A stretch of 7,668 bases of DNA, taken from IMG/VR virus record IMGVR_UViG_2651869696_000012; one strand, written 5' to 3'. The position numbers and the translations under genes were made by a program. The notes beneath the pieces were generated by a model. The model was given only the letters and a program-made list of their open reading frames with translations, searched no databases and was not told where the DNA came from. Origin of the DNA: a virus (taxonomy: Duplodnaviria > Heunggongvirae > Uroviricota > Caudoviricetes). Positions 1 through 7,668 of the stretch are shown here, piece after piece; positions within the stretch are counted from its first letter, which is position 1; each line of letters opens with the position of its first letter.

Positions 1-20
1 AACTTTTAAGATAAAAGATA

Positions 21-40
21 GATATCCCAGAAAGGATATC
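21..40. promoter_or_regulatory. Perfect inverted repeat GATATCC-n6-GGATATC upstream of the methyltransferase gene; candidate operator
   Basis: Read directly: gatatcc (21-27), spacer cagaaa, ggatatc (34-40). Lies about 80 bp upstream of the ATG at 121. Function is inferred only. Confidence 0.25.
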
Positions 41-120
41 CGTTTAGAAAACCTATTAAGTATCTCTTAAAAGAGAGCAAACCTTGTCAAGAGTGATTGC
101 AATAAAAATTTTTATTTCTT

Positions 121-783
121 ATGTCAATTGAGTGTATTTTAATCGGGAAGCATCATGGGGGTTCTGATTACTGGAGAACTCCATTTTTGTTATTTAAGAA
201 CTTACACCGTGAATTTATTTTCAGTCTGGATGGTGCTGCAACTGAGCATGACGCATTGTTGCCACGGTTCACCGATGATATCCACAATCAGTCATGGGTT
301 GGTGAAAGGGTATTCTGTAACCCACCATACAGCGACACTAAAACATTCCTCGTAAAAGCATCTGAAGCAGATTTAGCGGTATTCCTGATGCCCTACCGAC
401 CCCAAACCATATACTGGCTTAAGCACATCTTCACAAACCTGCTTTGCCATGAAATCCGTATTCTTCATCGTGCAGTTAAATGCCTTCCACCAGCAGGGCA
501 TAACGGGCTTGTTATTCGTTCACCGTTTCCAAGTGCAGTCGTTGTTTTTAAAAAAGAACCACGTAAGCATGAAATTACACAGATGGTTTGCTGTGCTGAC
601 ACGCTATTACCGTTAACCATCATTAACCGTGGTGGACTAAGAGGAAGACCCACCATTTACCCACCTGAGACGCTCGACAGCTTCACAAAGCTATACAGGC
701 AAGGAAAACCCATTAAGTGCATTGCAGATGCTCTCAGAATGCCTCTGAGCACGTCATACAGGATTGCTCAAAGGTTGAGCTAA
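121..783 (+). CDS. Phage-type N6-adenine DNA methyltransferase (Dam family) with C-terminal Hin/resolvase-like HTH domain
   Basis: 220-aa ORF. N-terminal part has W-R-T-P near the N-terminus, FSLDGAAT, and the catalytic NPPY tetrapeptide (..VFCNPPYSD..), the pattern I recall for the phage Dam family (Pfam PF05869). The C-terminal ~45 aa (GRPTIYPPETLDSFTKLYRQGKPIKCIADALRMPLSTSYRIAQRL) aligns by eye with the Hin invertase HTH (GRP...G.P...iA......ST.YR). No Shine-Dalgarno before the ATG (AT-rich leader); first in-frame start after the stop at 103-105. Confidence 0.8.
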   Translation: MSIECILIGKHHGGSDYWRTPFLLFKNLHREFIFSLDGAATEHDALLPRFTDDIHNQSWVGERVFCNPPYSDTKTFLVKASEADLAVFLMPYRPQTIYWLKHIFTNLLCHEIRILHRAVKCLPPAGHNGLVIRSPFPSAVVVFKKEPRKHEITQMVCCADTLLPLTIINRGGLRGRPTIYPPETLDSFTKLYRQGKPIKCIADALRMPLSTSYRIAQRLS

Positions 784-831
784 AATTCTCATATAGAGCA
801 CTGATTATGAGAGTGTTAAAGAGGCGATTTC

Positions 832-851
832 CCCTGTCTGGGGTTATTCGC
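832..851. repeat. Copy 1 of a ~20-bp motif CCCTKTCTGGGGTTAT(T)CGC containing a short CCC/GGG hairpin
   Basis: cccctgtctggggttattcgc read directly; a second copy lies ~170 bp downstream (1001-1019). Confidence 0.5.
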
Positions 852-1000
852 TTTTTACTGGAAGGGTTATTTTACAGAGGTTTTTCAAACCCCCTCAATA
901 ATAGAAACGAGCAACAAACGAAGAGCGAGAAATAAAATATTGAGACTGGTGAACGGGGCCTGTAAAGATTGTTTAAGAAGTCGGTTAAGAAGGTGGCTCT

Positions 1001-1019
1001 CCCTTTCTGGGGTTATCGC
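1001..1019. repeat. Copy 2 of the CCCTKTCTGGGGTTATCGC motif
   Basis: ccctttctggggttatcgc; shares the TCTGGGGTTAT core with the copy at 832-851. Confidence 0.5.
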
Positions 1020-1048
1020 CCTGCATCTTAGTGAGTCCAGGAAGTTCT

Positions 1049-1220
1049 CTGTGAAGGGTCTTGTCAGTCCTTTATATTGGGTGATTACAACTCTTTGAAA
1101 AATAAGAACTTTTAGAAATCACTGTTAAGGTTACAGAGTTAACTGTGAAGAGGCTTGTCAGTTCTCTATATATGGCTAATTACAACTTATTGAAAAATAA
1201 GAACTTTTAGAAGTTACTGT
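1049..1220. repeat. Two tandem ~78-bp imperfect direct repeats (units 1049-1125 and 1143-1220) separated by 17 bp
   Basis: Unit 1 ctgtgaagggtcttgtcagtcctttatattgggtgattacaactctttgaaaaataagaacttttagaaatcactgt; unit 2 ctgtgaagaggcttgtcagttctctatatatggctaattacaacttattgaaaaataagaacttttagaagttactgt. Roughly 80-85% identical by eye. Each starts CTGTGAAG and ends ACTGT. Confidence 0.7.
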
Positions 1221-1302
1221 CAGAGAGGTGAACACTTGATAGATACAGCTTTCCGGTTATGTCAAGCTGTTTTTTAATAGATAGCACAAAATGCTAAAGA
1301 TG

Positions 1303-1331
1303 CCCCTATACCATCTCGTACAGGGGGTTTT
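1303..1331 (+). terminator. Candidate intrinsic terminator (possibly bidirectional)
   Basis: Stem cccctatac (1303-1311) / gtacagggg (1318-1326) with one mismatch, 6-nt loop, then GTTTT. Sits between the repeat region and the 3' end of the minus-strand small ORF. Confidence 0.4.
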
Positions 1332-1340
1332 GAAGGGAGT

Positions 1341-1517
1341 TTAACGGGGTTCTGTGTGGTCATTATCCTTAAGGTCAAGCGTCCATGTACGACCGAACAG
1401 TTTAAATACAACAAGCACTCTGACGAGGATGTAGCGGAGTATCAGACCTGCAATCAGCCCAACACCTCCACCAGCCCATACATCAGGTGACCCCAGTTCA
1501 GGAGGGAGATTTACCAT
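1341..1517 (-). CDS. Hypothetical small membrane protein (58 aa from the internal Met; the track ORF extends to 1586)
   Basis: Minus-strand ORF with a hydrophobic segment (GGVGLIAGLILRYILVRVLVVF). The Met at 1515-1517 is preceded on the minus strand by AAGGA with a 6-nt spacer; the upstream Met at 1586 has no SD and lies inside repeat R1. It is the only minus-strand candidate and is locally GC-richer, so it could be spurious. Confidence 0.3.
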   Translation of the reverse strand: MVNLPPELGSPDVWAGGGVGLIAGLILRYILVRVLVVFKLFGRTWTLDLKDNDHTEPR

Positions 1518-1532
1518 TAGTTTTCCTTGTAA

Positions 1533-1629
1533 GACGCTTTCAATCGCATTCTGACACAAAAAAGTACCTGACCTTATAGTTGACATGAAGAGGCCGTTTA
1601 ACTCGTTACAGAGCGATTGAAGAAGTCTG
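1533..1629. repeat. R1: ~97-bp element with ~20-bp terminal inverted repeats; copy 1 of 2
   Basis: Left arm gacgctttcaatcgcattctgacacaaaaaa, variable core, right arm gtttaactcgttacagagcgattgaagaagtctg. Left arm and reverse complement of right arm match (GACgCTtTCAATCGC..TCTG vs GACttCTTCAATCGCTCTG). Second copy at 3200-3320. Confidence 0.7.
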
Positions 1630-1765
1630 TGTGCAATGCAAAAACCATGCGGCCATTCTCATGGTTGATTCGGTTTATCGAATAAACCTCATAGCCACGC
1701 CTCATATTTTACTCTCCCCATAGAACCATTATACCACAGATGTTAATGAAATGTTAAAAAAATGC

Positions 1766-1806
1766 TTGACATTAGTCTTTGAAAATGCTAGCATTGCCTA
1801 TATAAG
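1766..1806 (+). promoter_or_regulatory. Sigma70-like promoter region for the four-gene cassette (two overlapping candidate configurations)
   Basis: TTGACA (1766-1771), 17-bp spacer, extended -10 TGcTAGCAT (1786-1794); alternatively TTGAAA (1779-1784), 16 bp, TATAAG (1801-1806). A-rich tract immediately upstream (1745-1763) resembles an UP element. First gene starts at 1845. Confidence 0.45.
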
Positions 1807-1844
1807 TTAACAGAGAATTAACAATTATAAGGACTAGCTTATGA

Positions 1845-2402
1845 ATGAACGACAGAGAATTTAGAGCGATGCTTCAGGCATCAAGAGAACGCAACAAGCA
1901 CAACTCCTACAGCTACACAGACACCCCCACCAGCCACGAAGTACCCAAGTTCACCAGAGCAGAGCGCAAAGGCATTGACGAAGTAATTCGGGCAATTACA
2001 CCGAGGGAGCGTTATATGTCAATCAGAAAGAGCACGAAGAACACTATCAAGAATTATTTGAATAACTTTGATTCTTACGAGCAGTCATCAAGCTTGCTTG
2101 ATGATATTTTTATTGGATTCTGTAGAAGTGAAGGTCACCCGAAATACAACAAAAAACTATTTTATCTTCTAAAGAATCTTGATGAAATTAACGCAGCCAG
2201 CGTGACAAATTATCTTCAGCGACAAGCAACCAGACTTAGTTATGAATTACCAAGCGATAAATATTGTGCATTGCTTGCTGTAATGTGTGCAAAGCTAATT
2301 GGTGTTGTTGAACATCATGTTGCCGTTGGGAATATTGAACCAATGGAAAACGAGCAACCAGATTTCGAGTTTGACCCGTATTTAGTTACAGAGGAATTTT
2401 AA
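1845..2402 (+). CDS. Hypothetical protein (185 aa) with acidic C-terminal tail
   Basis: ORF with AAGGA 11 nt upstream; first gene of a translationally coupled cassette; C-terminus ..ENEQPDFEFDPYLVTEEF. No family recognised. Confidence 0.7.
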   Translation: MNDREFRAMLQASRERNKHNSYSYTDTPTSHEVPKFTRAERKGIDEVIRAITPRERYMSIRKSTKNTIKNYLNNFDSYEQSSSLLDDIFIGFCRSEGHPKYNKKLFYLLKNLDEINAASVTNYLQRQATRLSYELPSDKYCALLAVMCAKLIGVVEHHVAVGNIEPMENEQPDFEFDPYLVTEEF

Positions 2403-2403
2403 A

Positions 2404-2685
2404 ATGAAAAACAGACACACTCTAACCCGTATTTCAGAGGAAGCTTTTAATGAGCTTACCAGAATTAAACGAGCGACTAACTTGCCTCATCAAACTGTTA
2501 TGCAACTTGCAATTGCTAAAGAAGTTACTGAGTCGGATTTACTTAAATATCCAGTCTCTAAAGGTCGCAAACACATCCGAATTGCTCAGGACGCTTTAGA
2601 TACTTTGAAGGCACTTAACAGCTTTAAAATTGATATTGCCCGACTATTGAGTATTAAGATTCACAAGTTAGCGATGGAGGTTTAA
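2404..2685 (+). CDS. Putative ribbon-helix-helix-like DNA-binding protein (93 aa)
   Basis: GAGG 9 nt upstream (inside the TTACAGAGG motif). N-terminus NRHTLTRISEEAFNELTRIKRATNLPHQTVMQLAIAKEV fits the beta-strand / helix A / turn / helix B pattern of CopG/Arc-type RHH proteins; assignment by pattern only. Confidence 0.65.
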   Translation: MKNRHTLTRISEEAFNELTRIKRATNLPHQTVMQLAIAKEVTESDLLKYPVSKGRKHIRIAQDALDTLKALNSFKIDIARLLSIKIHKLAMEV

Positions 2686-2900
2686 TGCTATGCGTTACCT
2701 TTGAATACCACACGGATAAAATGATTCGCTACATCTCCGACCTCCTGATTAAAGGAAACGGATTCGGTGACATCCATAACTCAAGAGATATTTTCATTAA
2801 AGCCATTGGCCCAAATGAAGTACTGAAAACAGCAGTTACACCGGAATGGTTTGAGCGTCACAAGATTGAATTAGGTTATTGGGGTGAGGAGGTTTTATGA
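2685..2900 (+). CDS. Hypothetical protein (71 aa)
   Basis: Start overlaps upstream stop (TAATG); GGAGG 4 nt upstream; no recognisable family. Confidence 0.6.
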   Translation: MLCVTFEYHTDKMIRYISDLLIKGNGFGDIHNSRDIFIKAIGPNEVLKTAVTPEWFERHKIELGYWGEEVL

Positions 2901-3184
2901 AACCTTGGCATGAAGATGTTAGACGATATTTTACAGAACACCTTATCTATGATGAATCCAGTGATTCCCTGTGCTGGTCTGATGGAGAGTCAGTCACGAT
3001 AAATACCGACGACTACGGCAACAAAACATTTAATATAGGCCGATATACTTTCTACGTGAAATATGTTGTCTGGTTCCTTTATCATGGCTATCAATCCAAT
3101 AAGCAAATTATCCATCGAAATGGTAACAGAGCCGATACCAGACCAAAAAATCTTATGCAAGTCCGAGACTTTAAGAGAAATTAG
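2897..3184 (+). CDS. Small HNH-type (HNH_3-like) endonuclease-fold protein, apparently degenerate
   Basis: ATGA overlap with upstream gene; GAGGAGG 4 nt upstream. Sequence ..IYDESSDSLCW..GNKTF..YTFYVKYVVWFLYHGYQSNKQIIHRNGNRADTRPKNLMQV follows the architecture of phage HNH proteins (YDPETG..W ... HRLAW ... DHIDGN..NN...NLR) but with substitutions at usually conserved positions (HRL to KYV; DNR/NN to DT). Confidence 0.7.
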   Translation: MKPWHEDVRRYFTEHLIYDESSDSLCWSDGESVTINTDDYGNKTFNIGRYTFYVKYVVWFLYHGYQSNKQIIHRNGNRADTRPKNLMQVRDFKRN

Positions 3185-3199
3185 AAAAATAGCTTCTCA

Positions 3200-3320
3200 G
3201 ACGCTCTCAATCGCATTCTAACGCAAAAAACTATCTTATTTTAGGGTGGGTAATACCACTGTACAGGCTACCCCTGAAAAAGACTGTTTAGCTCGTTACA
3301 GAGCGATTGAGGAGGTCTGG
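3200..3320. repeat. R2: ~121-bp element with ~20-bp terminal inverted repeats; copy 2 of 2
   Basis: Left arm gacgctctcaatcgcattctaacgcaaaaaa, 55-bp variable core, right arm gtttagctcgttacagagcgattgaggaggtctgg. Same arms as R1 at 1533-1629 with a different, longer core. Immediately after the cassette stop (3184) and 20 bp before the next gene. Confidence 0.7.
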
Positions 3321-3340
3321 TAAAAAGGAGATTTTAAGAA

Positions 3341-3670
3341 ATGAGAGAATTAAACTTTCCATTACAAATTATGCTTGATATCGACACAGTAAATATGATT
3401 CAACACTTCGTTGATTCCGGTGTATCAATTGACTTTGACAGGCTGTTAAAGCTGATGGCTGATAATGCAGAAAACATCTCTGACTTTATTCAGTCGGTGG
3501 AGTTTAACGAGCCTCGAATGATGCTACCAATTACCGACTCAAACATGAAAAGATTGGTTATCGAGCAAACGAACAAACACAGTATTTCCCCAGAGCAATT
3601 TTTGAAAGGTGCTGTGACAATCCTGCACAGCGATAATATTCTGGTGACGGATTCTATGAGGGTTCACTAA
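3341..3670 (+). CDS. Hypothetical acidic protein (109 aa)
   Basis: AAGGAG 10 nt upstream; Asp/Glu-rich; no recognisable family. Confidence 0.7.
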   Translation: MRELNFPLQIMLDIDTVNMIQHFVDSGVSIDFDRLLKLMADNAENISDFIQSVEFNEPRMMLPITDSNMKRLVIEQTNKHSISPEQFLKGAVTILHSDNILVTDSMRVH

Positions 3671-3747
3671 TGGGATTGATAATTGCTTGGACAGCTTTAG
3701 GTTTATTTGTTGGTTGCTGGGTGGGCAACGCGGTAAATAAAAATTGA
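3670..3747 (+). CDS. Candidate 25-aa single-pass hydrophobic peptide (MGLIIAWTALGLFVGCWVGNAVNKN)
   Basis: ATG at 3670-3672 overlaps the TAA of the upstream gene (TAATG coupling); stop TGA at 3745-3747. Below the ORF-track cutoff; hydrophobic core with polar C-terminus. Confidence 0.3.
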   Translation: MGLIIAWTALGLFVGCWVGNAVNKN

Positions 3748-3771
3748 TGTTACCAATCTGTTAAAAGGCTG

Positions 3772-3800
3772 TTGACAAATAATCTTAAGCATGACATAAT
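3772..3800 (+). promoter_or_regulatory. Sigma70-like promoter
   Basis: TTGACA (3772-3777), 17-bp spacer, CATAAT (3795-3800); AT-rich upstream. Confidence 0.5.
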
Positions 3801-3806
3801 TGTATA

Positions 3807-3998
3807 TATAGGAAGAGCAATTTTTCCTAAAATCATATTTTCAATAATCCGATGGATGGATATTCTGAGTTGGAAAGGTGCAATGCTTTTCGTCATGGCC
3901 TTTCAGTTTAGTCTGAGAGGTCATCTCAAAAAGTGCTTAATCATTCATTATTGAACCCTTACAGCTTTGCCCTAACTCATGATTAGGGCGTTTTCTTT
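3807..3998 (+). ncRNA. Candidate small RNA (~190 nt) between the promoter and an intrinsic terminator
   Basis: No ORF with an RBS in this unit (the 60-aa track ORF starts inside the -35 box). Internal 12-bp stem ATGGCCTTTCAG (3895-3906) / CTGAGAGGTCAT (3913-3924) with a 6-nt loop; its two non-Watson-Crick positions are G-U wobbles only in the + strand RNA. Ends at the terminator at 3969-3998. Coordinates approximate. Confidence 0.3.
3969..3998 (+). terminator. Intrinsic terminator
   Basis: Stem gccctaa (3969-3975) / ttagggc (3983-3989), 7-nt loop, followed by gTTTTCTTT. Confidence 0.6.
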
Positions 3999-4067
3999 AA
4001 GAGTTTTTAAACAGAGCTTTTAAAGAAAGTTTTTCCTGAAACTTCGTTAACGTTAAAGCAAACCTTC

Positions 4068-4101
4068 AAAGCCCTTCACAGATTATGTTTAGGGCTTTTT
4101 T
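4068..4101 (+). terminator. Second candidate intrinsic terminator
   Basis: aaagccct (4068-4075) / agggcttt (4091-4098) with a 15-nt loop, followed by a T run to 4101. Loop is large, so lower confidence. Confidence 0.45.
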
Positions 4102-4218
4102 CAGCTTTTAAAAAGCATACTTGGCAAACGCCTTTTAAGTCTCTTCTAAGTTCGTAGGCTGTCAGGTGTGCTTTTTAAAAACTGAAACATAAATTATCTT
4201 AGAAGAGGAAAAATAATA

Positions 4219-4923
4219 ATGTCTATCCGTGATGAACATGAAATGATTATCGAAAACAAACCAAGTGCACTTGATATTCACGAATTAAGTTTGCGTGAAT
4301 CTTTTGATAGAGCTTGGCGGGAATCACACGAAGTAAATAAAGGTCCATATATTCCACCAGAACCACTCGAGATTCCAAGAGTTGAAATTGATTTTTCGAT
4401 GAATGAGGAATGTGAGCTTGATTTGAAACTGAAGCTGCAACGCCGATATTTCCAAGCTATTAAAGACTCTCAAGAAGCAATGAGAAGTGTTTACGAGAAA
4501 ATTCAGTCCAAGCTTGAAGACGAAATCGACGAAATGGCTATTTTGATGGAGCTTCAAACCAATTCTTATGCTTATTTCTCTCGACTAGACCGTGACGGTT
4601 GGGGGTATGACCCTGTAGAGATTGGTAAAGTGATTGCAGATTTACCAGAAGGTCAAAGGGTTATTCGTACGGAAAGGGCTATCAGAGCGCCACATCAACT
4701 GTCTCTAATTGTTGCTGATAAATCACAAGCTGAGCTTGAAGAAATTGCCAAAGAGAAACTGATGAAAGCAAGAGAAAATGAGATTAATTTGCTGAAATCA
4801 AGACTGGCTAAGCTGATTAGTGACCATCAAGCGCTGGCTAAGGAGTACCGTCAAGAGTTGGCACAGATTATCAGCTTCAATGATTTTCTGAGTGTTCCAC
4901 GAGAATTTAGCAAGGCTGTTTAA
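4219..4923 (+). CDS. Hypothetical glutamate-rich, probably helical/coiled-coil protein (234 aa)
   Basis: GAGG 10 nt upstream; long charged helical-looking stretches (..AELEEIAKEKLMKARENEINLLKSRLAKLISDHQALAKEYRQELAQ..); no recognisable family. Confidence 0.75.
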   Translation: MSIRDEHEMIIENKPSALDIHELSLRESFDRAWRESHEVNKGPYIPPEPLEIPRVEIDFSMNEECELDLKLKLQRRYFQAIKDSQEAMRSVYEKIQSKLEDEIDEMAILMELQTNSYAYFSRLDRDGWGYDPVEIGKVIADLPEGQRVIRTERAIRAPHQLSLIVADKSQAELEEIAKEKLMKARENEINLLKSRLAKLISDHQALAKEYRQELAQIISFNDFLSVPREFSKAV

Positions 4924-4945
4924 TTATGCATATGTGAGGTGATGA

Positions 4946-5161
4946 ATGATTGATTTAACAGAACGCTATGAAACTATTAAGTCTGTTTGTGAAAACTTAA
5001 AGTTACAAACTAAGCCAGCCTTAAGAATTAAAACCAAACATCAAATTATCACCTCACGCAAACCAAAAACACGCAAGATTCCAAAGTGGTGTATCGACCG
5101 TATCCCTTCCGATGCTCAAATTATAGGTGAAACGGAACTACATTATCTTGTCAGGCATTAA
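4946..5161 (+). CDS. Hypothetical small basic protein (71 aa)
   Basis: TGAGG 6 nt upstream; Lys/Arg-rich (..RIKTKHQIITSRKPKTRKIPKW..); follows the upstream gene after 22 bp. Confidence 0.6.
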   Translation: MIDLTERYETIKSVCENLKLQTKPALRIKTKHQIITSRKPKTRKIPKWCIDRIPSDAQIIGETELHYLVRH

Positions 5162-5210
5162 AAAAGATTGGTTGGGTGTATGAGATAGGTTCTATCGAAT
5201 CTATAACACG

Positions 5211-5252
5211 GGGAGAGATTATCGATATTATTCGGTAGTTTCTCCCTTTTTT
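5211..5252 (+). terminator. Candidate intrinsic terminator after the 71-aa gene
   Basis: Stem gggagaga (5211-5218) / tttctccc (5239-5246), one G-U, 20-nt loop, followed by TTTTTT (5247-5252). Confidence 0.5.
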
Positions 5253-5260
5253 GTATGTGT

Positions 5261-5330
5261 GCTACGTGAAATCTTCTGAACAGATATACCCACCAAAAAT
5301 TATTTTTTACGTAGCTCACGCTTAACAGAG
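5261..5330. repeat. Repeat A: 70-bp element directly upstream of the tape-measure-like gene; copy 1 of 2
   Basis: gctacgtgaaatcttctgaacagatatacccaccaaaaattattttttacgtagctcacgcttaacagag. Contains inverted repeat GCTACGT...ACGTAGC and ends in TTAACAGAG, followed by the SD GAGGTGA. Second copy at 7406-7475. Confidence 0.7.
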
Positions 5331-5344
5331 GTGAAATATGAACA

Positions 5345-7393
5345 ATGGCACAATTTAAAGTTGATAGTTTTATCGTTGAGCTAGGCTTCAATGAAAACGT
5401 TATTAAGAGCTTGCAAAGAGTTGAAAAGGCAGCTTTGCAGTCAGCACAAAGAATTGAAAAGAACCTTAACAAAGGCTTCAAGATTAATACCAAGCAACTT
5501 GACAGCAATCTGACAAGTTCTTTGAAGTCAATGGAAGGAAAAATTAATAAGACCTTTGACCGTCTGGAAGCTAGAGCAAGAAACACAAAAGTTTTCCGTT
5601 TCACAAGTCAGGTTAACGATGCTGTTAATCCTCCAAAACAACCGAGACAGCCACGAATTAGCGGCAACAGAGCAATCACAGCAGCTTATTCAGCTAATAT
5701 GTCTAAGTTAAAGGGCTTTGACCCTATTTTGCAGAAATACATCAAATCTCAGTTTTACGGGCTATCTGCTAAAGCCGGTTCAATGGATTCTTCAAAATTC
5801 AATGAGAAGCTGTCTCAGTTAAATGCTTCAGTCAGAGAAGCAATTGCTAAAGCTAAAGGTCATACATCCACCAGCATTAATGGTGACAGAGCAGCTAGCA
5901 GCCTTGATAACCTGTCTTCGGCAGCAGTCAAAACAGCAGGTGCATTTATCTCAATGCAGGCTGTATTAGCCAGTTATCAGAAGATTATGGAAGTTGGTTT
6001 ACAGCGTGCAAGTGCTGAGCGTTCAATTGATTTCGTATTTGATAAAGATGCAGGTCAGGTAAAAGAGTTCACAAAGTCATTAGCTCAAACAACGGGTTTA
6101 GATATCGCTGAACTGCAATCACAGTTTGCTGGTTTTGGTGCTTCAGCTAAAGAATCTATGGGTATTCAGGGTTCTGAAGAACTTTTTAAAAATATGATTG
6201 GCTATTCTCGTTTAATGGGTCGAAGTGAAGAAGAGATTAAGCGAGCATTAACAGCGCTATCGCAGATGGCTGGTAAGGGTCAGGTGATGGCTGAGGAGCT
6301 GAAAGGTCAATTAGCTGAAGCTGTTCCTGGTATGGTTCAGGTATTCGCTAAAGCAACCGGAAAGACTGAACAGGAATTATTTGATGCCATGAAGAAGGGG
6401 GCTTTAAAATCTGCCGATACTCTTCAGAAGGTCACTCAGGAACTGAATAAACAAATCACCGCTAAAGGTGGCTGGAAAGCCATTTCAGAAAGTACACAGG
6501 CACAACTAGGGAACTTGAAAAACTCTTGGAATACCACGCTTGACAGTATTTTCAGAGGTTCTGAAGATGGTTTACAGGACTTCACAAGAAGCTTAACAAC
6601 GCTTTTAAATAGTCTTGGTGGGAGTGGTAAAAGTCTTGGTGAATCTCTTGGTAGTCTCATGACTTCTATGTCAAGTGGTGTGGATTCATTGACTGATATC
6701 AGCTACAGGGTAAGAGCATTCTTTGATGAGGTGACATTAGCTTACCGTGGTTTAACCGATGAACAAAAGAAAGTAGTTGATGCTTTAGGTTCTGGCTTGA
6801 TTAATAGTTTAAAAGTCTTGGCTGGTGTTATTGCTGTGAATAAAGTTGTTGGTGTAACCAGAAGTATTTACGGGCTTATGACTGCTATCACAAGATTAGG
6901 TCAGGTTGCTGATACTACAGCGGATAACGTGAATAGAAAGAATGGGAAACCATCAAGACTGAATCTTGGGAATATGCTATTAGCTGGTAGCGCTCTCTAT
7001 GCAGGTTATGAAAGATTAGCCTCTACACCTGAACGAATGGAAGCACAAGCTAAATTACCAGAGTTAGCTAAAGAATCTGGACTTAAGCCAGTATTTACTA
7101 TGGACGATGTGAAAGGTTGGTTTAATAGTGCAGCTATGAATCTTGCTAACTTCCAGCATCCAGAATTAAACAACATTAAGCAAGATGCGGCATTAACGAA
7201 TACGGATATCCAAAGCCTGAGAGATGAAATTAGTGCTTTGAGCAAACGTATTCAGGAGCCTGTGAAAGTTTCACTTGGTGGTGAAGTTGCTATTAAACCA
7301 GATGAAACCAGCTTTATGACATTTAACAGCAGTCTGTACGACCAATACGCAGAAGCTACGCTATTAAGTTCATCATTCCCAGAAGATGATTGA
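5345..7393 (+). CDS. Tape-measure-domain protein (682 aa)
   Basis: Long ORF with GAGGTGA 11 nt upstream. Central region ..RALTALSQMAGKGQVMAEELKGQLAEAVPGMVQVFAKATGKTEQELFDAMKKGALKSADTLQKV.. matches, as I recall it, the conserved tape-measure domain of lambda-H-like proteins (TIGR02675-type). Gly/Ser/Ala/Lys-rich with hydrophobic segments (..LAGVIAVNKVVGV..). Short for a classical tape measure and lacks adjacent tail genes. Confidence 0.8.
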   Translation: MAQFKVDSFIVELGFNENVIKSLQRVEKAALQSAQRIEKNLNKGFKINTKQLDSNLTSSLKSMEGKINKTFDRLEARARNTKVFRFTSQVNDAVNPPKQPRQPRISGNRAITAAYSANMSKLKGFDPILQKYIKSQFYGLSAKAGSMDSSKFNEKLSQLNASVREAIAKAKGHTSTSINGDRAASSLDNLSSAAVKTAGAFISMQAVLASYQKIMEVGLQRASAERSIDFVFDKDAGQVKEFTKSLAQTTGLDIAELQSQFAGFGASAKESMGIQGSEELFKNMIGYSRLMGRSEEEIKRALTALSQMAGKGQVMAEELKGQLAEAVPGMVQVFAKATGKTEQELFDAMKKGALKSADTLQKVTQELNKQITAKGGWKAISESTQAQLGNLKNSWNTTLDSIFRGSEDGLQDFTRSLTTLLNSLGGSGKSLGESLGSLMTSMSSGVDSLTDISYRVRAFFDEVTLAYRGLTDEQKKVVDALGSGLINSLKVLAGVIAVNKVVGVTRSIYGLMTAITRLGQVADTTADNVNRKNGKPSRLNLGNMLLAGSALYAGYERLASTPERMEAQAKLPELAKESGLKPVFTMDDVKGWFNSAAMNLANFQHPELNNIKQDAALTNTDIQSLRDEISALSKRIQEPVKVSLGGEVAIKPDETSFMTFNSSLYDQYAEATLLSSSFPEDD

Positions 7394-7405
7394 TAATAGT
7401 CGAAT

Positions 7406-7475
7406 GCTACGTGAAATCTCTTGAACAGATATACCCACTGAAAAATAGAATTTACGTACAACACGCTTAACAGAG
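7406..7475. repeat. Repeat B: second copy of the 70-bp element, directly downstream of the tape-measure-like gene
   Basis: gctacgtgaaatctcttgaacagatatacccactgaaaaatagaatttacgtacaacacgcttaacagag; about 85% identical to copy A by eye; same length and same TTAACAGAG 3' end. Confidence 0.7.
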
Positions 7476-7489
7476 AAAATACTTAAATA

Positions 7490-7533
7490 TCAAAGGCTTG
7501 GTTAAAAATGATTAAAATACACTAAGCCTTTGA
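7490..7533. other. Perfect 10-bp inverted repeat TCAAAGGCTT-n24-AAGCCTTTGA (hairpin or operator)
   Basis: Read directly; flanked by a short direct repeat ATCAAAGG (7488-7495, 7535-7542). No T run on the + strand; the - strand is T-rich after it. Confidence 0.4.
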
Positions 7534-7668
7534 AATCAAAGGAGAATTTAATGATTTACACTAATCAGCTTCGGGTGATGCTGCCAACTTACTGATTTAG
7601 TGTATGATGGTGTTTTTGAGGTGCTCCAGTGGCTTCTGTTTCTATCAGCTGTCCCTCCTGTTCAGCTA

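What the first reader, a model, noticed from the sequence alone, without database searches (positions are those of the whole stretch)
121..783. Dam-family methyltransferase fused to a Hin/resolvase-type HTH
The catalytic part (WRTP, NPPY) is a typical phage orphan N6-adenine methyltransferase, but the last ~45 residues align well with the DNA-binding HTH of Hin-type serine recombinases (GRP...STSYR). No recombinase catalytic domain and no restriction-enzyme partner are present. The extra HTH could target methylation to specific sites or autoregulate the gene; the GATATCC inverted repeat at 21-40 is a candidate binding site.
Basis: partly seen in the sequence, partly recalled or inferred. Interest (0 to 1): 0.6.

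Follow-up and report, generated by a model that had tools for sequence, protein, structure and literature searches.

The report
Adenine methyltransferase with built-in DNA-binding tail
The gene really encodes a small phage-type DNA adenine methyltransferase fused to a resolvase/Hin-like DNA-binding tail, a rare fusion, and it sits in an 11 kb chromosomal island that looks like an undescribed parasite (satellite) of virulent FelixO1-like phages.

Summary
ORF 121-783 is one uninterrupted 220-aa gene with two parts. The first is a Dam-family (PF05869) N6-adenine methyltransferase core (WRTP, D-x-AA, NPPY; M.TaqI-like fold). The second is a conserved beta-hairpin, a GRP arm and a three-helix HTH. 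As a family profile, the tail matches Sin, gamma-delta, Tn3 and Hin recombinase DNA-binding domains.

The fusion is rare, conserved and real:
- Only about 7-10 of 2309 Dam-family clusters carry it.
- It is conserved down to 36-48% identity in Klebsiella, Serratia, Erwinia and Raoultella.
- Both halves are under purifying selection.
- It is absent from phage and plasmid collections.

The gene lies in the variable left arm of a ~11.4 kb island bounded by a large serine recombinase. The island has no GATC sites and ~39% GC. It carries a tape-measure gene and a Dit-like gene 72% identical to a Felixounavirus gene. Window 3-60, which includes the 21-40 palindrome, is a copy of an intergenic block found in 253 FelixO1-like phages.

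The palindrome is therefore not noise. However, its right arm is mutated in 3 of 10 alleles, and it is absent upstream of other alleles with the same HTH.

Best reading (inferred): a methyltransferase switched on by helper-phage infection, not specific for GATC, whose tail acts as its DNA-recognition module. I rate it a new variant of a known kind.

The parts
121..783 (+). Complete gene for the 220-aa methyltransferase-HTH fusion protein (stop codon included).
   Evidence: ORF list. Orthologues of identical length in more than 600 clusters at 90% identity. dN/dS 0.05-0.33 in both halves.
163..615 (+). N6-adenine DNA methyltransferase catalytic domain (residues ~15-165), Pfam Dam PF05869 type with a gamma-class-like fold.
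172..183 (+). W-R-T-P motif (residues 18-21), an N-terminal signature of the Dam PF05869 family.
   Evidence: W18 and P21 are nearly invariant in the 39-sequence alignment.
229..240 (+). D37-G-A-A40, the conserved D-x-A-A motif; inferred cofactor-binding motif.
   Evidence: D37 is invariant and A39/A40 nearly invariant across 39 family members.
319..330 (+). N-P-P-Y catalytic motif IV (residues 67-70).
   Evidence: Read from the sequence. N67, P68 and P69 are invariant in 39 sequences.
577..642 (+). Subfamily-specific connector (residues ~153-174): a beta-hairpin (CADTLLPLTII) absent from plain Dam-family enzymes.
   Evidence: Alignments (plain members end before it). AF2 strands 153-157 and 164-169 with pLDDT of 90 or more.
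643..651 (+). G-R-P arm (residues 175-177), equivalent to the minor-groove arm that precedes the HTH of Hin, Sin and resolvases.
   Evidence: Aligned to 'KGRP' of Sin/Bin3 (2r0q) in the profile search. G175 and P177 are invariant.
664..777 (+). Three-helix resolvase/homeodomain-like HTH (residues 182-219); the recognition helix includes S-T-S-Y-R.
3..60 (+). Regulatory block upstream of the gene that is 86% identical to a single-copy intergenic sequence of FelixO1-like phages.
   Evidence: blastn to GEP101. Alignment. 253 phage records match, all in unannotated DNA. In FelixO1 it lies between divergent ORF85 and ORF84. Present upstream of the gene in 114 of 5426 E. coli genomes.
21..40 (.).
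   Evidence: Present. By count it is not rarer than chance: 11 such repeats against 7.8+-3.2 expected. The phage version is AGATATC-CAGAAA-GATATCT, symmetric on both arms. The right arm is mutated in 3 of 10 island alleles and the left arm is invariant.
58..70 (+). AAGTATCTCTTAA, one copy of a short motif (AAGWATCTSTWAA) that recurs upstream of the gene in both types of upstream region.
   Evidence: The motif was defined after the fact from these same sequences, so it is only a weak lead.
5345..7393 (+). Tape-measure protein gene of the island. It is context, not part of the fusion protein, but it ties the island to Felixounavirus.
   Evidence: PF20155 and PHROG_4036. Best phage matches are Felixounavirus tape-measure proteins, 29% identity over the full length. 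The 5' end is ~79% identical at DNA level to the phage gene.
1..7573 (.). GATC-free, ~40% GC island DNA. The whole window up to the IS1 end belongs to it.
   Evidence: 0 GATC against 23.5+-4.6 expected or 24.8 expected. Sister islands have 0 GATC in ~11.4 kb against about 5 per kb in the flanking chromosome.

Best explanation
What it is (shown). A two-domain protein. Residues ~15-165 form a minimal N6-adenine DNA methyltransferase of the Dam PF05869 family with all family-invariant residues present. Residues ~153-220 form a subfamily-specific beta-hairpin, a GRP arm and a resolvase/Hin-type three-helix HTH. The fusion defines a small, conserved subfamily confined to Enterobacterales. It is carried in small integrase-bearing, phage-related islands.

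Where it is (shown). In E. coli it occupies the variable left-arm slot of a ~11.4 kb island closed by a large serine recombinase and inserted in yecE. The island has no GATC sites and ~39% GC. It carries a tape-measure gene and a Dit-like gene 72% identical to a Felixounavirus gene. The 58 nt upstream of the methyltransferase gene are a copy of a conserved Felixounavirus intergenic block.

How it most likely works (inferred).
1. The island is a satellite-like parasite of virulent FelixO1-type phages.
2. The methyltransferase gene has no recognisable sigma-70 promoter or Shine-Dalgarno sequence. It is probably switched on through the phage-type regulatory block when such a phage infects.
3. The catalytic core resembles M.TaqI, and plain family members have no separate recognition domain. 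The C-terminal HTH therefore probably serves as the enzyme's DNA-recognition and anchoring module.
4. This module would direct m6A to a target other than GATC in island and/or phage DNA. The purpose would be protection of replicating island DNA or interference with the helper. Neither the island nor the presumed helper has a single GATC, and the host Dam enzyme already methylates the chromosome.
For: Architecture:
- Family scans.
- Family-level HTH: 18 of 26 relatives hit HTH_7, best E 5.5e-10; Sin 7e-6, gamma-delta 8e-5, Hin 0.05.
- AF2 pLDDT 87.5 and pTM 0.84 with three C-terminal helices.

Rarity and conservation:
- Of 2309 Dam-family clusters at 50% identity, only about 7-10 align through residue ~219.
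- Relatives of 215-251 aa occur in Erwinia, Raoultella, Klebsiella, Serratia and Pantoea.
- The tail consensus CADTLLxL...GRPTxYD...IPxSTxxRIxQRL is conserved.
- dN/dS is 0.05-0.33 in both halves.

The tail occupies the position of a recognition domain:
- Plain family members stop about 10-20 residues after the last core strand.
- Viral structural matches cover only the core, with TM-score (query-normalised) of 0.57 or less.

Island and helper link:
- Island layout.
- Dit-like protein 72.5% aa and 80% nt identical to the gene after the GEP101 tape-measure gene.
- Tape-measure homology.
- 0 GATC and 38.9% GC in 84 kb of GEP101, against 0 GATC and ~39.5% GC in the islands and about 5 GATC per kb and 50% GC in the flanks.
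- Shared avoidance of 6-bp palindromes.
- 58-nt block shared with 253 FelixO1-like phages.

Expression: no sigma-70-like promoter was found upstream in the closest relative.
Against: - No methylation, DNA-binding or expression data exist here. Target, timing and purpose are all inferred.
- Characterised PF05869 enzymes (T1, HP1 and VT2 Dam, from memory) recognise GATC without any HTH. The core alone can therefore be sequence-specific, and the tail need not set specificity.
- The AF2 output gives no inter-domain error estimate. A fixed HTH-core geometry is suggested only by the pTM.
- Sister islands at yciI-tonB lack the gene entirely and carry an unrelated 221-aa protein in its place. The protein is therefore accessory, not core to the island's life cycle.
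- About half of the E. coli alleles (L001 type) lack the phage-derived upstream block. Phage-triggered expression cannot be general in that form.
- The Klebsiella and Serratia islands that carry relatives are not GATC-free.
Confidence: 0.45

Rival explanations
1. Autoregulator model. The catalytic core has its own specificity. The HTH binds an operator in the gene's own promoter region (the 21-40 palindrome or the AAGWATCTSTWAA motif) to limit methyltransferase expression, or to control neighbouring island genes.
For: - Methyltransferases with a separate HTH region that binds an operator and regulates transcription are established (M.SsoII, PMC3978073; M.Ecl18kI, PMC2760811).
- A palindrome of dimer-operator size lies 81-100 nt upstream of the start codon.
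- It is retained, with symmetric arm changes, between island and phage.
- Diverged relatives in Serratia and Klebsiella each have their own short tandem repeats 46-250 bp upstream of the gene.
- The gene is always embedded in 2-3 kb of non-coding DNA.
Against: - Alleles with a nearly identical HTH (L001 type) have a completely different upstream region without the palindrome.
- 3 of 10 sampled alleles carry an uncompensated change in the right arm, while the left arm is invariant.
- The palindrome belongs to a block inherited from a phage that has no such methyltransferase. A phage or host factor is therefore the simpler ligand.
- Such inverted repeats are no more frequent in the window than chance allows.
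- M.SsoII joins its HTH by a flexible linker at the N-terminus. Here the tail follows a conserved, confidently modelled beta-hairpin at the C-terminus.
Confidence: 0.25
2. The protein is mainly a DNA-binding regulator of the island (repressor, or origin- or att-site-binding factor). The methyltransferase domain would be inactive or would serve only as a dimerisation or cofactor-sensing scaffold.
For: - It is a lone gene in a long non-coding, repeat-rich region next to the recombinase end of the island, in three genera.
- No other clear HTH regulator was detected among the window's ORFs.
- It scores below the NCBIfam equivalog cut-off, and the Pfam match covers only the first half of the model.
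Against: - All family-invariant catalytic and cofactor residues are kept (F34, D37, A39, A40, N67-P-P-Y70, W18, P21).
- The catalytic half is under purifying selection, dN/dS 0.2-0.3.
- Islands without the gene exist and look intact, so it is not the island's essential regulator.
Confidence: 0.08
3. An ordinary GATC-specific phage Dam with a functionally unimportant appended tail, for example a relic of recombination with a neighbouring serine recombinase gene.
For: - It passes the Pfam cut-off for the Dam PF05869 family.
- Small serine recombinase genes with GRP-HTH tails lie directly upstream in sister islands.
Against: - The island and its presumed helper contain no GATC at all, and E. coli already has Dam. 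A GATC enzyme would have no useful substrate.
- The tail is conserved at 36-48% overall identity across genera and is under purifying selection.
- It is only 33% identical to the neighbouring recombinase HTH, so it is not a recent capture.
Confidence: 0.07
4. Artefact: two adjacent genes read as one because of a sequencing or assembly frameshift.
For: None found.
Against: - An identical 220-aa reading frame occurs in 158 complete E. coli genomes with 80% or more coverage, and in five independent assemblies with the exact protein.
- The same architecture is found in other genera.
- The AF2 model is continuous and confident across the junction.
Confidence: 0.01

Closest known systems
Phage-type small Dam methyltransferases (Pfam PF05869; T1, HP1 and VT2/933W Dam)
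   Same: The catalytic core is the same. It carries W-x-T-P, D-x-A-A and NPPY, is about 150 residues long, is an orphan, and sits on a mobile, phage-related element.
   Different: - It has a ~70-residue C-terminal hairpin + GRP + HTH module that fewer than 1% of family clusters possess.
- It fails the NCBIfam equivalog cut-off.
- It resides in a GATC-free element, which makes the family's classical GATC target implausible.
DNA-binding domains of small serine recombinases (Hin, Gin, Sin, gamma-delta/Tn3 resolvase; Pfam HTH_7)
   Same: A G-R-P arm followed by a three-helix HTH at the extreme C-terminus. The family profile and the fold both match these domains.
   Different: - There is no serine-recombinase catalytic domain; the HTH is attached to a methyltransferase.
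- This single sequence is below the HTH_7 cut-off.
- It is only 33% identical to the HTH of the recombinase encoded next door in sister islands.
M.SsoII / M.Ecl18kI-type methyltransferases with a regulatory HTH region
   Same: One polypeptide combines DNA methylation with a separate HTH that can bind a second DNA site (PMC3978073, PMC2760811).
   Different: Those are C5-cytosine enzymes of complete restriction-modification systems, with an N-terminal HTH on a flexible linker and a defined operator between the R and M genes. Here the enzyme is an m6A orphan, the HTH is C-terminal behind a structured hairpin, there is no restriction partner, and no operator has been verified.
Gamma-class N6-adenine methyltransferases with a C-terminal recognition domain (M.TaqI, M.BseCI, CamA)
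   Different: Their recognition domains are large (150-300 residues) and are not HTH folds. Here the module is a 45-residue resolvase-type HTH.
Phage satellites of virulent phages (Vibrio cholerae PLE with ICP1); this comparison concerns the island, not the protein
   Same: It is a small integrated island with a large serine recombinase, mostly unknown genes, and long non-coding repeat regions. Its sequence features are tied to one virulent phage group.
   Different: - The gene content is unrelated.
- It carries its own tape-measure gene and a Dit-like tail gene.
- The helper relationship, excision, replication and packaging are all untested.

Membership tests
Pfam Dam (PF05869) N6-adenine DNA methyltransferase | Profile score above the curated gathering threshold. 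| tested here: met
   52.3 bits against 28.1, E 6.9e-14. All 39 aligned relatives also hit the model.
Pfam Dam (PF05869) N6-adenine DNA methyltransferase | Catalytic (N/D)PP(Y/F) motif, plus the family's W-x-T-P and F-x-x-D-x-A-A motifs. | tested here: met
   NPPY at residues 67-70, WRTP at 18-21, F34/D37/A39/A40. These are invariant or nearly invariant columns of the 39-sequence alignment.
Pfam Dam (PF05869) N6-adenine DNA methyltransferase | Class I SAM-dependent (Rossmann-like) N6-adenine methyltransferase fold. | tested here: met
NCBIfam TIGR01712 phage_N6A_met (equivalog) | Score above the equivalog cut-off, meaning the same function as the characterised phage enzymes. | tested here: not met
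   41.3 bits against a cut-off of 97.05. It is a divergent subfamily, so GATC specificity cannot be transferred to it.
Pfam Dam (PF05869) N6-adenine DNA methyltransferase | Actual transfer of methyl to adenine N6 in DNA, and the target sequence. | not testable with these tools
   Needs a methylome or an enzyme assay. Indirect constraint: 0 GATC in the island and in the presumed helper phage.
Resolvase/Hin-type HTH (Pfam HTH_7, PF02796) | Profile score above the gathering threshold for this protein. | tested here: not met
   19.0 bits against 23.8, E 0.0016.
Resolvase/Hin-type HTH (Pfam HTH_7, PF02796) | Family-level profile similarity to serine-recombinase DNA-binding domains. | tested here: met
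   18 of 26 fusion relatives hit HTH_7, best E 5.5e-10. The tail profile against PDB gives Sin/Bin3 7e-6, gamma-delta 8e-5, Tn3 1.4e-3 and Hin 0.05.
Resolvase/Hin-type HTH (Pfam HTH_7, PF02796) | Three-helix HTH preceded by a G-R-P minor-groove arm. | tested here: met
Small serine recombinase (Hin/Gin/resolvase) | N-terminal catalytic Resolvase domain (PF00239) with the active-site serine. | tested here: not met
   No PF00239 hit in the protein. It is not a recombinase.
Methyltransferase with a regulatory HTH (M.SsoII/M.Ecl18kI type) | HTH region fused to the methyltransferase. | tested here: met
   Yes, but C-terminal and on an m6A enzyme.
Methyltransferase with a regulatory HTH (M.SsoII/M.Ecl18kI type) | Cognate operator in its own promoter region. 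| tested here: inconclusive
   A palindrome is present at 21-40. It is absent from L001-type alleles with the same HTH, and its right arm is mutated in 3 of 10 alleles.
Methyltransferase with a regulatory HTH (M.SsoII/M.Ecl18kI type) | Adjacent restriction endonuclease gene under the same control. | tested here: not met
   No nuclease partner other than a small HNH_3 homing-type ORF 2 kb away. PADLOC classes the protein as an orphan methyltransferase.
Phage satellite (for the island that carries the gene) | Small integrated element with its own integrase but without a full set of virion and packaging genes. | tested here: met
   ~11.4 kb with a large serine recombinase (PF00239+PF07508+PF13408). 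It has only tape-measure and Dit-like structural genes, and no capsid, portal or terminase.
Phage satellite (for the island that carries the gene) | Specific sequence links to a helper phage. | tested here: met
   Dit-like protein 72.5% identical to the Felixounavirus one. The 58-nt regulatory block occurs in 253 FelixO1-like phages. Both show total GATC avoidance and ~39% GC.
Phage satellite (for the island that carries the gene) | Helper-dependent excision, replication and packaging. | not testable with these tools
   Needs infection experiments.

The most novel reading that the evidence does not exclude
The protein is a satellite-encoded, infection-triggered, site-directed methyltransferase. 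Its resolvase-type HTH would recognise the conserved block/palindrome that the island shares with the divergent ORF85/ORF84 promoter region of FelixO1-like phages. The tethered catalytic core would methylate or occlude that site. This would both autoregulate the gene and reprogramme helper-phage transcription. It would be an epigenetic hijacking or defence device on a previously undescribed E. coli satellite of a virulent phage.
Probability: 0.1. Interest if true: 0.85.

Novelty: new variant of a known kind. Interest (0 to 1): 0.55.

Why it matters
- Small Dam-family enzymes are usually treated as interchangeable GATC orphans. A conserved subfamily that has recruited a recombinase-type HTH, and that sits in DNA without a single GATC, points to a natural tethered or retargeted adenine methyltransferase. 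That matters for how methylation specificity evolves, and as a compact scaffold for targeted 6mA tools.
- The context may matter more. The gene marks a family of ~11 kb islands, found in about 4% of complete E. coli genomes. They copy tail genes, a regulatory block and the extreme GATC and palindrome avoidance of FelixO1-like virulent phages.
- If these islands are satellites, they would be an E. coli counterpart of the Vibrio PLE-ICP1 system, for a phage group that is used in typing and biocontrol.

Tried and rejected
1. Chance test of the palindrome. Inverted repeats with 7-bp arms and spacers of 10 nt or less occur 11 times in the window, against 7.8+-3.2 in Markov shuffles. The count alone says nothing. 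The palindrome gained meaning only through its homology to the phage block.
2. Terminator reading of the palindrome. The scan flags it on the minus strand. No gene arrangement in the island or the phage calls for a terminator there, so I did not adopt this.
3. Recent capture of the tail from the neighbouring small recombinase. Rejected: only 33% identity over 43 residues.
4. Analogy to the non-specific adenine methyltransferases Hia5 and Hin1523. Dropped: those enzymes have DPPY and FxGxG motifs and a different architecture (PMC3299994).
5. Rfam scan of the window. Nothing credible.
6. Looking for an operator as a repeated motif. AAGWATCTSTWAA recurs upstream in both upstream types, but it was defined from these same sequences. 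The heptamer CTGTTAA/TTAACAG is 7-fold enriched, but it is spread over coding and non-coding DNA and is also enriched in the phage. Neither can be assigned to this HTH.
7. GATATC enrichment. It is 7 against 1.5 expected in the window, but this is not reproduced in sister islands or in the phage.
8. Similarity of the protein to anything in the Felixounavirus genome. None was found. The phage's own methylase is a PF01555 enzyme, and its HTH_3 protein gives only a generic match to the tail.
9. The afdb50 structure library was unavailable.
10. Literature searches for a yecE island, a satellite with a tape-measure gene, or a Felixounavirus satellite found nothing relevant. The last paper search was badly chosen and found nothing.
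Full report
**1. The observation**

The window holds a single ATG-initiated ORF at 121-783 (+) of 220 codons.

Profile searches confirm the catalytic part:
- Pfam Dam PF05869 scores 52.3 bits against a gathering score of 28.1.
- PHROG_111 'DNA methyltransferase' covers residues 15-151.
- PADLOC classes the protein as an orphan methyltransferase.

The protein does not reach the NCBIfam equivalog threshold for canonical phage N6A methyltransferases (41 against 97 bits). It is therefore a divergent member of the family.

The HTH call is sub-threshold for this one sequence (HTH_7 19.0 against 23.8 bits). It becomes firm at family level (section 2).

**2. Is the fusion real, and how common is it?**

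An exhaustive search of 1.84 billion cluster representatives found 2309 Dam-family clusters. Only about seven full-length ones (P0121-P0126, P0132), plus a few fragments, align through residue ~219. Everything else is a plain enzyme of 140-190 aa that ends shortly after the last core strand.

A profile search with the distant members recovered relatives of 215-251 aa from Erwinia, Raoultella, Klebsiella, Serratia and Pantoea. Several carry pre-computed HTH_7, HTH_28 or HTH_23 hits.

Evidence that the tail is a resolvase-type HTH:
- Of 26 fusion members scanned, 18 hit HTH_7 (best E 5.5e-10) and 19 hit HTH_23.
- A profile of the last ~60 residues finds, among solved structures, the homeodomain-like repeat protein 2lvs, the Sin/Bin3 recombinase (E 7e-6, with the GRP arm aligned), the Sleeping Beauty PAI subdomain, gamma-delta and Tn3 resolvases, and Hin.
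- AlphaFold2 on a 39-sequence alignment gives mean pLDDT 87.5 and pTM 0.84. It shows a mixed alpha/beta core, a beta-hairpin (153-157 and 164-169) and three C-terminal helices.
- Viral predicted structures match only the core.

Among four E. coli alleles, dN/dS is 0.2-0.3 in the core and 0.05-0.33 in the tail. Both halves are therefore translated and constrained.

Another kind of HTH-Dam fusion exists: an N-terminal HTH_17 in P0302. Adding an HTH to this core has thus happened more than once.

**3. Where the gene lives**

The window is the 7668-bp contig JHSV01000132.1. It ends in IS1 at 7574-7668.

In complete E. coli genomes the same DNA is part of a ~11.4 kb insertion that splits yecE. In order, it contains:
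- about 0.5-1.6 kb of non-coding DNA, with or without a 182-190 aa serine recombinase in either orientation;
- the methyltransferase-HTH gene;
- about 1 kb of repeat-rich non-coding DNA;
- six small unknown ORFs and an HNH_3 ORF;
- a tape-measure gene and a Dit-like 'baseplate' gene;
- a 506-aa large serine recombinase.

The gene occurs in 206 of 5426 complete genomes and is always chromosomal. No phage or plasmid record covers 80% or more of the protein.

Sister islands inserted between yciI and tonB share the right-hand genes. They lack the methyltransferase and carry an unrelated 221-aa protein in the same slot. The closest allele (99.2%, strain GN02350) sits on a different right-hand backbone. 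The gene is therefore accessory cargo in a recombining left arm.

Relatives in Serratia and Klebsiella sit in islands of similar size with serine or tyrosine integrases, a lambda-E-type capsid gene, a tape-measure gene or a Dit-like gene. Again the gene stands alone in 2-3 kb of non-coding DNA.

**4. An unexpected property: the island looks like FelixO1-type phage DNA**

- The window has no GATC at all (24 expected). Sister islands have 0 GATC in 11.4 kb, while the flanking chromosome has about 5 per kb. The GATC-free interval coincides with the island.
- GC content is 39-40% in the island against 50% in the flanks.
- The tape-measure protein's best phage relatives are Felixounavirus tape-measure proteins (29% identity over the full length).
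- In phage GEP101 the gene after the tape-measure gene is a Dit-like protein. It is 72.5% identical in protein and 80% identical in DNA to the island's Dit-like gene. The 5' and 3' ends of the tape-measure genes also match at DNA level.
- GEP101 has 0 GATC in 84 kb (292 expected), 38.9% GC and strong avoidance of 6-bp palindromes. The island shares that avoidance: 9 sites observed against about 49 expected from composition, summed over the 24 palindromes that the phage avoids.
- Complete GATC avoidance in coliphages is known, for example in phiX174 (PMC5014478).

FelixO1-like phages are virulent and do not integrate. A small island with its own integrase that copies their tail genes and their compositional signature is most simply read as a satellite-like parasite of these phages. 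No paper in the searched library describes such an element. Induction, replication and packaging are untested.

**5. The palindrome**

By number, inverted repeats of this size are at chance level in the window. Yet window 3-60, which contains the palindrome, is 86% identical to a single-copy intergenic block present in 253 FelixO1-like phage records. In FelixO1 the block lies between the divergent ORF85 and ORF84.

The phage version reads AGATATC-CAGAAA-GATATCT and the island version GATATCC-CAGAAA-GGATATC. The difference is symmetric on both arms. That hints at constraint on the symmetry over the long term.

Within islands, the left arm and the sequence 5' of it are invariant in 10 sampled alleles. 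The right arm has single uncompensated changes in three of them (GAATATC, GGGTATC, GGATATT). Only 114 of the 206 genomes with the gene have this upstream region. The others (L001 type) have an unrelated upstream sequence although their HTH is nearly identical.

The block is therefore a phage-type regulatory element placed in front of the gene. Whether the gene's own HTH, a phage factor or a host factor binds it is open. No sigma-70-like promoter is detected upstream in the closest relative, and no Shine-Dalgarno sequence is visible before the ATG.

**6. How it most likely works**

Shown:
- an intact Dam-family catalytic core;
- a conserved resolvase-type HTH with a GRP arm at the C-terminus;
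- orphan status;
- accessory position in a phage-linked island;
- a phage-derived block upstream;
- no GATC in the island or in the presumed helper.

Inferred:
- (a) The enzyme's useful target is not GATC. Neither the island nor the presumed helper has one, and the host Dam enzyme already covers the chromosome.
- (b) The tail occupies the topological place of the recognition domain of gamma-class enzymes such as M.TaqI (the M.TaqI domain order is established knowledge). It is joined by a structured, conserved hairpin rather than a flexible linker. It therefore probably takes part in substrate recognition or anchoring.
- (c) Expression is probably triggered by phage infection through the copied regulatory block.
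- (d) The pay-off would be protection of replicating island DNA or interference with the phage.

I give this composite 0.45.

The main rival is an M.SsoII-like autoregulator (PMC3978073, PMC2760811) that uses the palindrome or another upstream motif. It gets 0.25. The two readings are not mutually exclusive. A pure regulator with a dead catalytic domain gets 0.08. A plain GATC Dam with an idle tail gets 0.07. An artefact gets 0.01.

**7. Comparison with the known, and novelty**

The protein is a member of Pfam Dam by score, motifs and fold, but it is not an equivalog of the characterised phage enzymes. Its tail belongs to the resolvase/homeodomain-like HTH class at family level, but the protein is not a recombinase. 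Methyltransferases with regulatory HTH regions are known. However, those are C5 enzymes of full restriction-modification systems with N-terminal HTHs.

I found no description of this C-terminal resolvase-HTH/Dam fusion, and public annotation calls it simply 'DNA N-6-adenine-methyltransferase'. I rate it a new variant of a known kind.

The island context (a candidate satellite of Felixounavirus) may be the more novel item. It rests on sequence inference only.

**8. Limits**

- There are no functional data.
- The structure output gives no inter-domain error estimates.
- The allele sample for the palindrome is small (10).
- The short motifs were defined after the fact.
- The statement that characterised PF05869 enzymes methylate GATC is from memory, not from a tool result.

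Noticed in passing
window 1-7573; L001 10255-22181; L002 6504-18318; L008 12329-24454: There is not a single GATC in the island (0 against about 24 expected in the window, and 0 in ~11.4 kb of sister islands). The flanking chromosome has about 5 per kb, and the GATC-free gap coincides with the island. Related islands in Serratia and Klebsiella are not GATC-free.
   Followed up: yes
window 5345-7393 and 3-60; L001 19379-20152; L014 12507-15532; L015 46750-46805: The island shares several features with virulent FelixO1-like phages: a tape-measure gene (29% aa identity, with the gene termini conserved at DNA level), a Dit-like gene (72.5% aa and 80% nt identity), a 58-nt intergenic block, ~39% GC, and total GATC and 6-bp-palindrome avoidance. 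It looks like an undescribed satellite of Felixounavirus.
   Followed up: partly
window 1043-1125 and 1137-1220; also 815-847 and 984-1016: The 1-kb non-coding stretch after the gene contains a ~95-bp tandem duplication (83-88% identical). It also contains two 33-nt repeats, each with a CCCC-N5-GGGG hairpin. Both sets are conserved in L001 and L002. They could be an origin, an RNA or binding sites.
   Followed up: no
window 1728-1794, 1259-1277 and 1754-1772, 1341-1586 (-): There is a divergent pair of strong sigma-70-like promoters: TTAACA-18-TATAAT on the minus strand and TTGACA-17-TAGCAT on the plus strand. 19-nt inverted repeats, each carrying TTGACAT, lie 476 nt apart. A minus-strand ORF of 58-81 aa is called as a gene in some assemblies but is not annotated by PGAP.
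   Followed up: no
window 1122, 1807, 2615, 3443, 3758, 4955, 5322, 5622, 6248, 7323, 7467: The heptamer CTGTTAA/TTAACAG occurs 11 times against 1.6 expected. It occurs about once per kb in all E. coli islands and almost never in the flanks. It is also enriched in phage GEP101 (47 against 21 expected). Two copies sit in near-identical ribosome-binding contexts, before the tape-measure gene and before the next gene.
   Followed up: partly
L002 7227-7775 (+); L008 12920-13489 (-); L007 4460-5029 (-); L002 6836-6875 and 7948-7987: Small serine recombinases (182-190 aa, resolvase/invertase type) lie just upstream of the methyltransferase slot in many sister islands, in either orientation. In L002 the gene is bracketed by 40-nt imperfect inverted repeats, which could mark an invertible or mobile module.
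   Followed up: partly
L006 3552-4217; L007 3405-4070: Sister islands inserted between yciI and tonB have an unrelated 221-aa protein with no Pfam hit in the position of the methyltransferase. The left arm thus looks like a cargo slot, as in other satellites.
   Followed up: partly
window 7574-7668: An IS1 end (100% identical to IS1 of P1 and many plasmids) terminates the contig. It lies about where the Dit-like gene should begin, so that gene is interrupted or the assembly broke there.
   Followed up: partly
L003 9751-9819; L005 9909-9955 and 10666-10784: The diverged relatives have their own short tandem repeats next to the gene: 3 x 23 bp in Serratia, and 4 x 11 bp upstream plus 3 x 22 bp just downstream in Klebsiella. 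These are iteron-like and could be binding sites that co-vary with the HTH.
   Followed up: no
window 121-783 compared with L008 14001-14660: The window allele differs from its closest relative by 5 non-synonymous and 0 synonymous changes (C5H, M90I, C120Y, T190I and one more). The number is too small to be significant.
   Followed up: no
window 2897-3184: A 95-aa HNH_3 (homing-endonuclease-type) ORF lies inside the island's small-gene cluster. It has a weak match to a homing endonuclease gene of phage GEP101.
   Followed up: no
L015 17302-18023: The Felixounavirus GEP101 carries its own DNA methylase of a different family (PF01555), annotated as two adjacent ORFs. The phage therefore also modifies DNA, but not with a Dam PF05869 enzyme.
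   Followed up: partly
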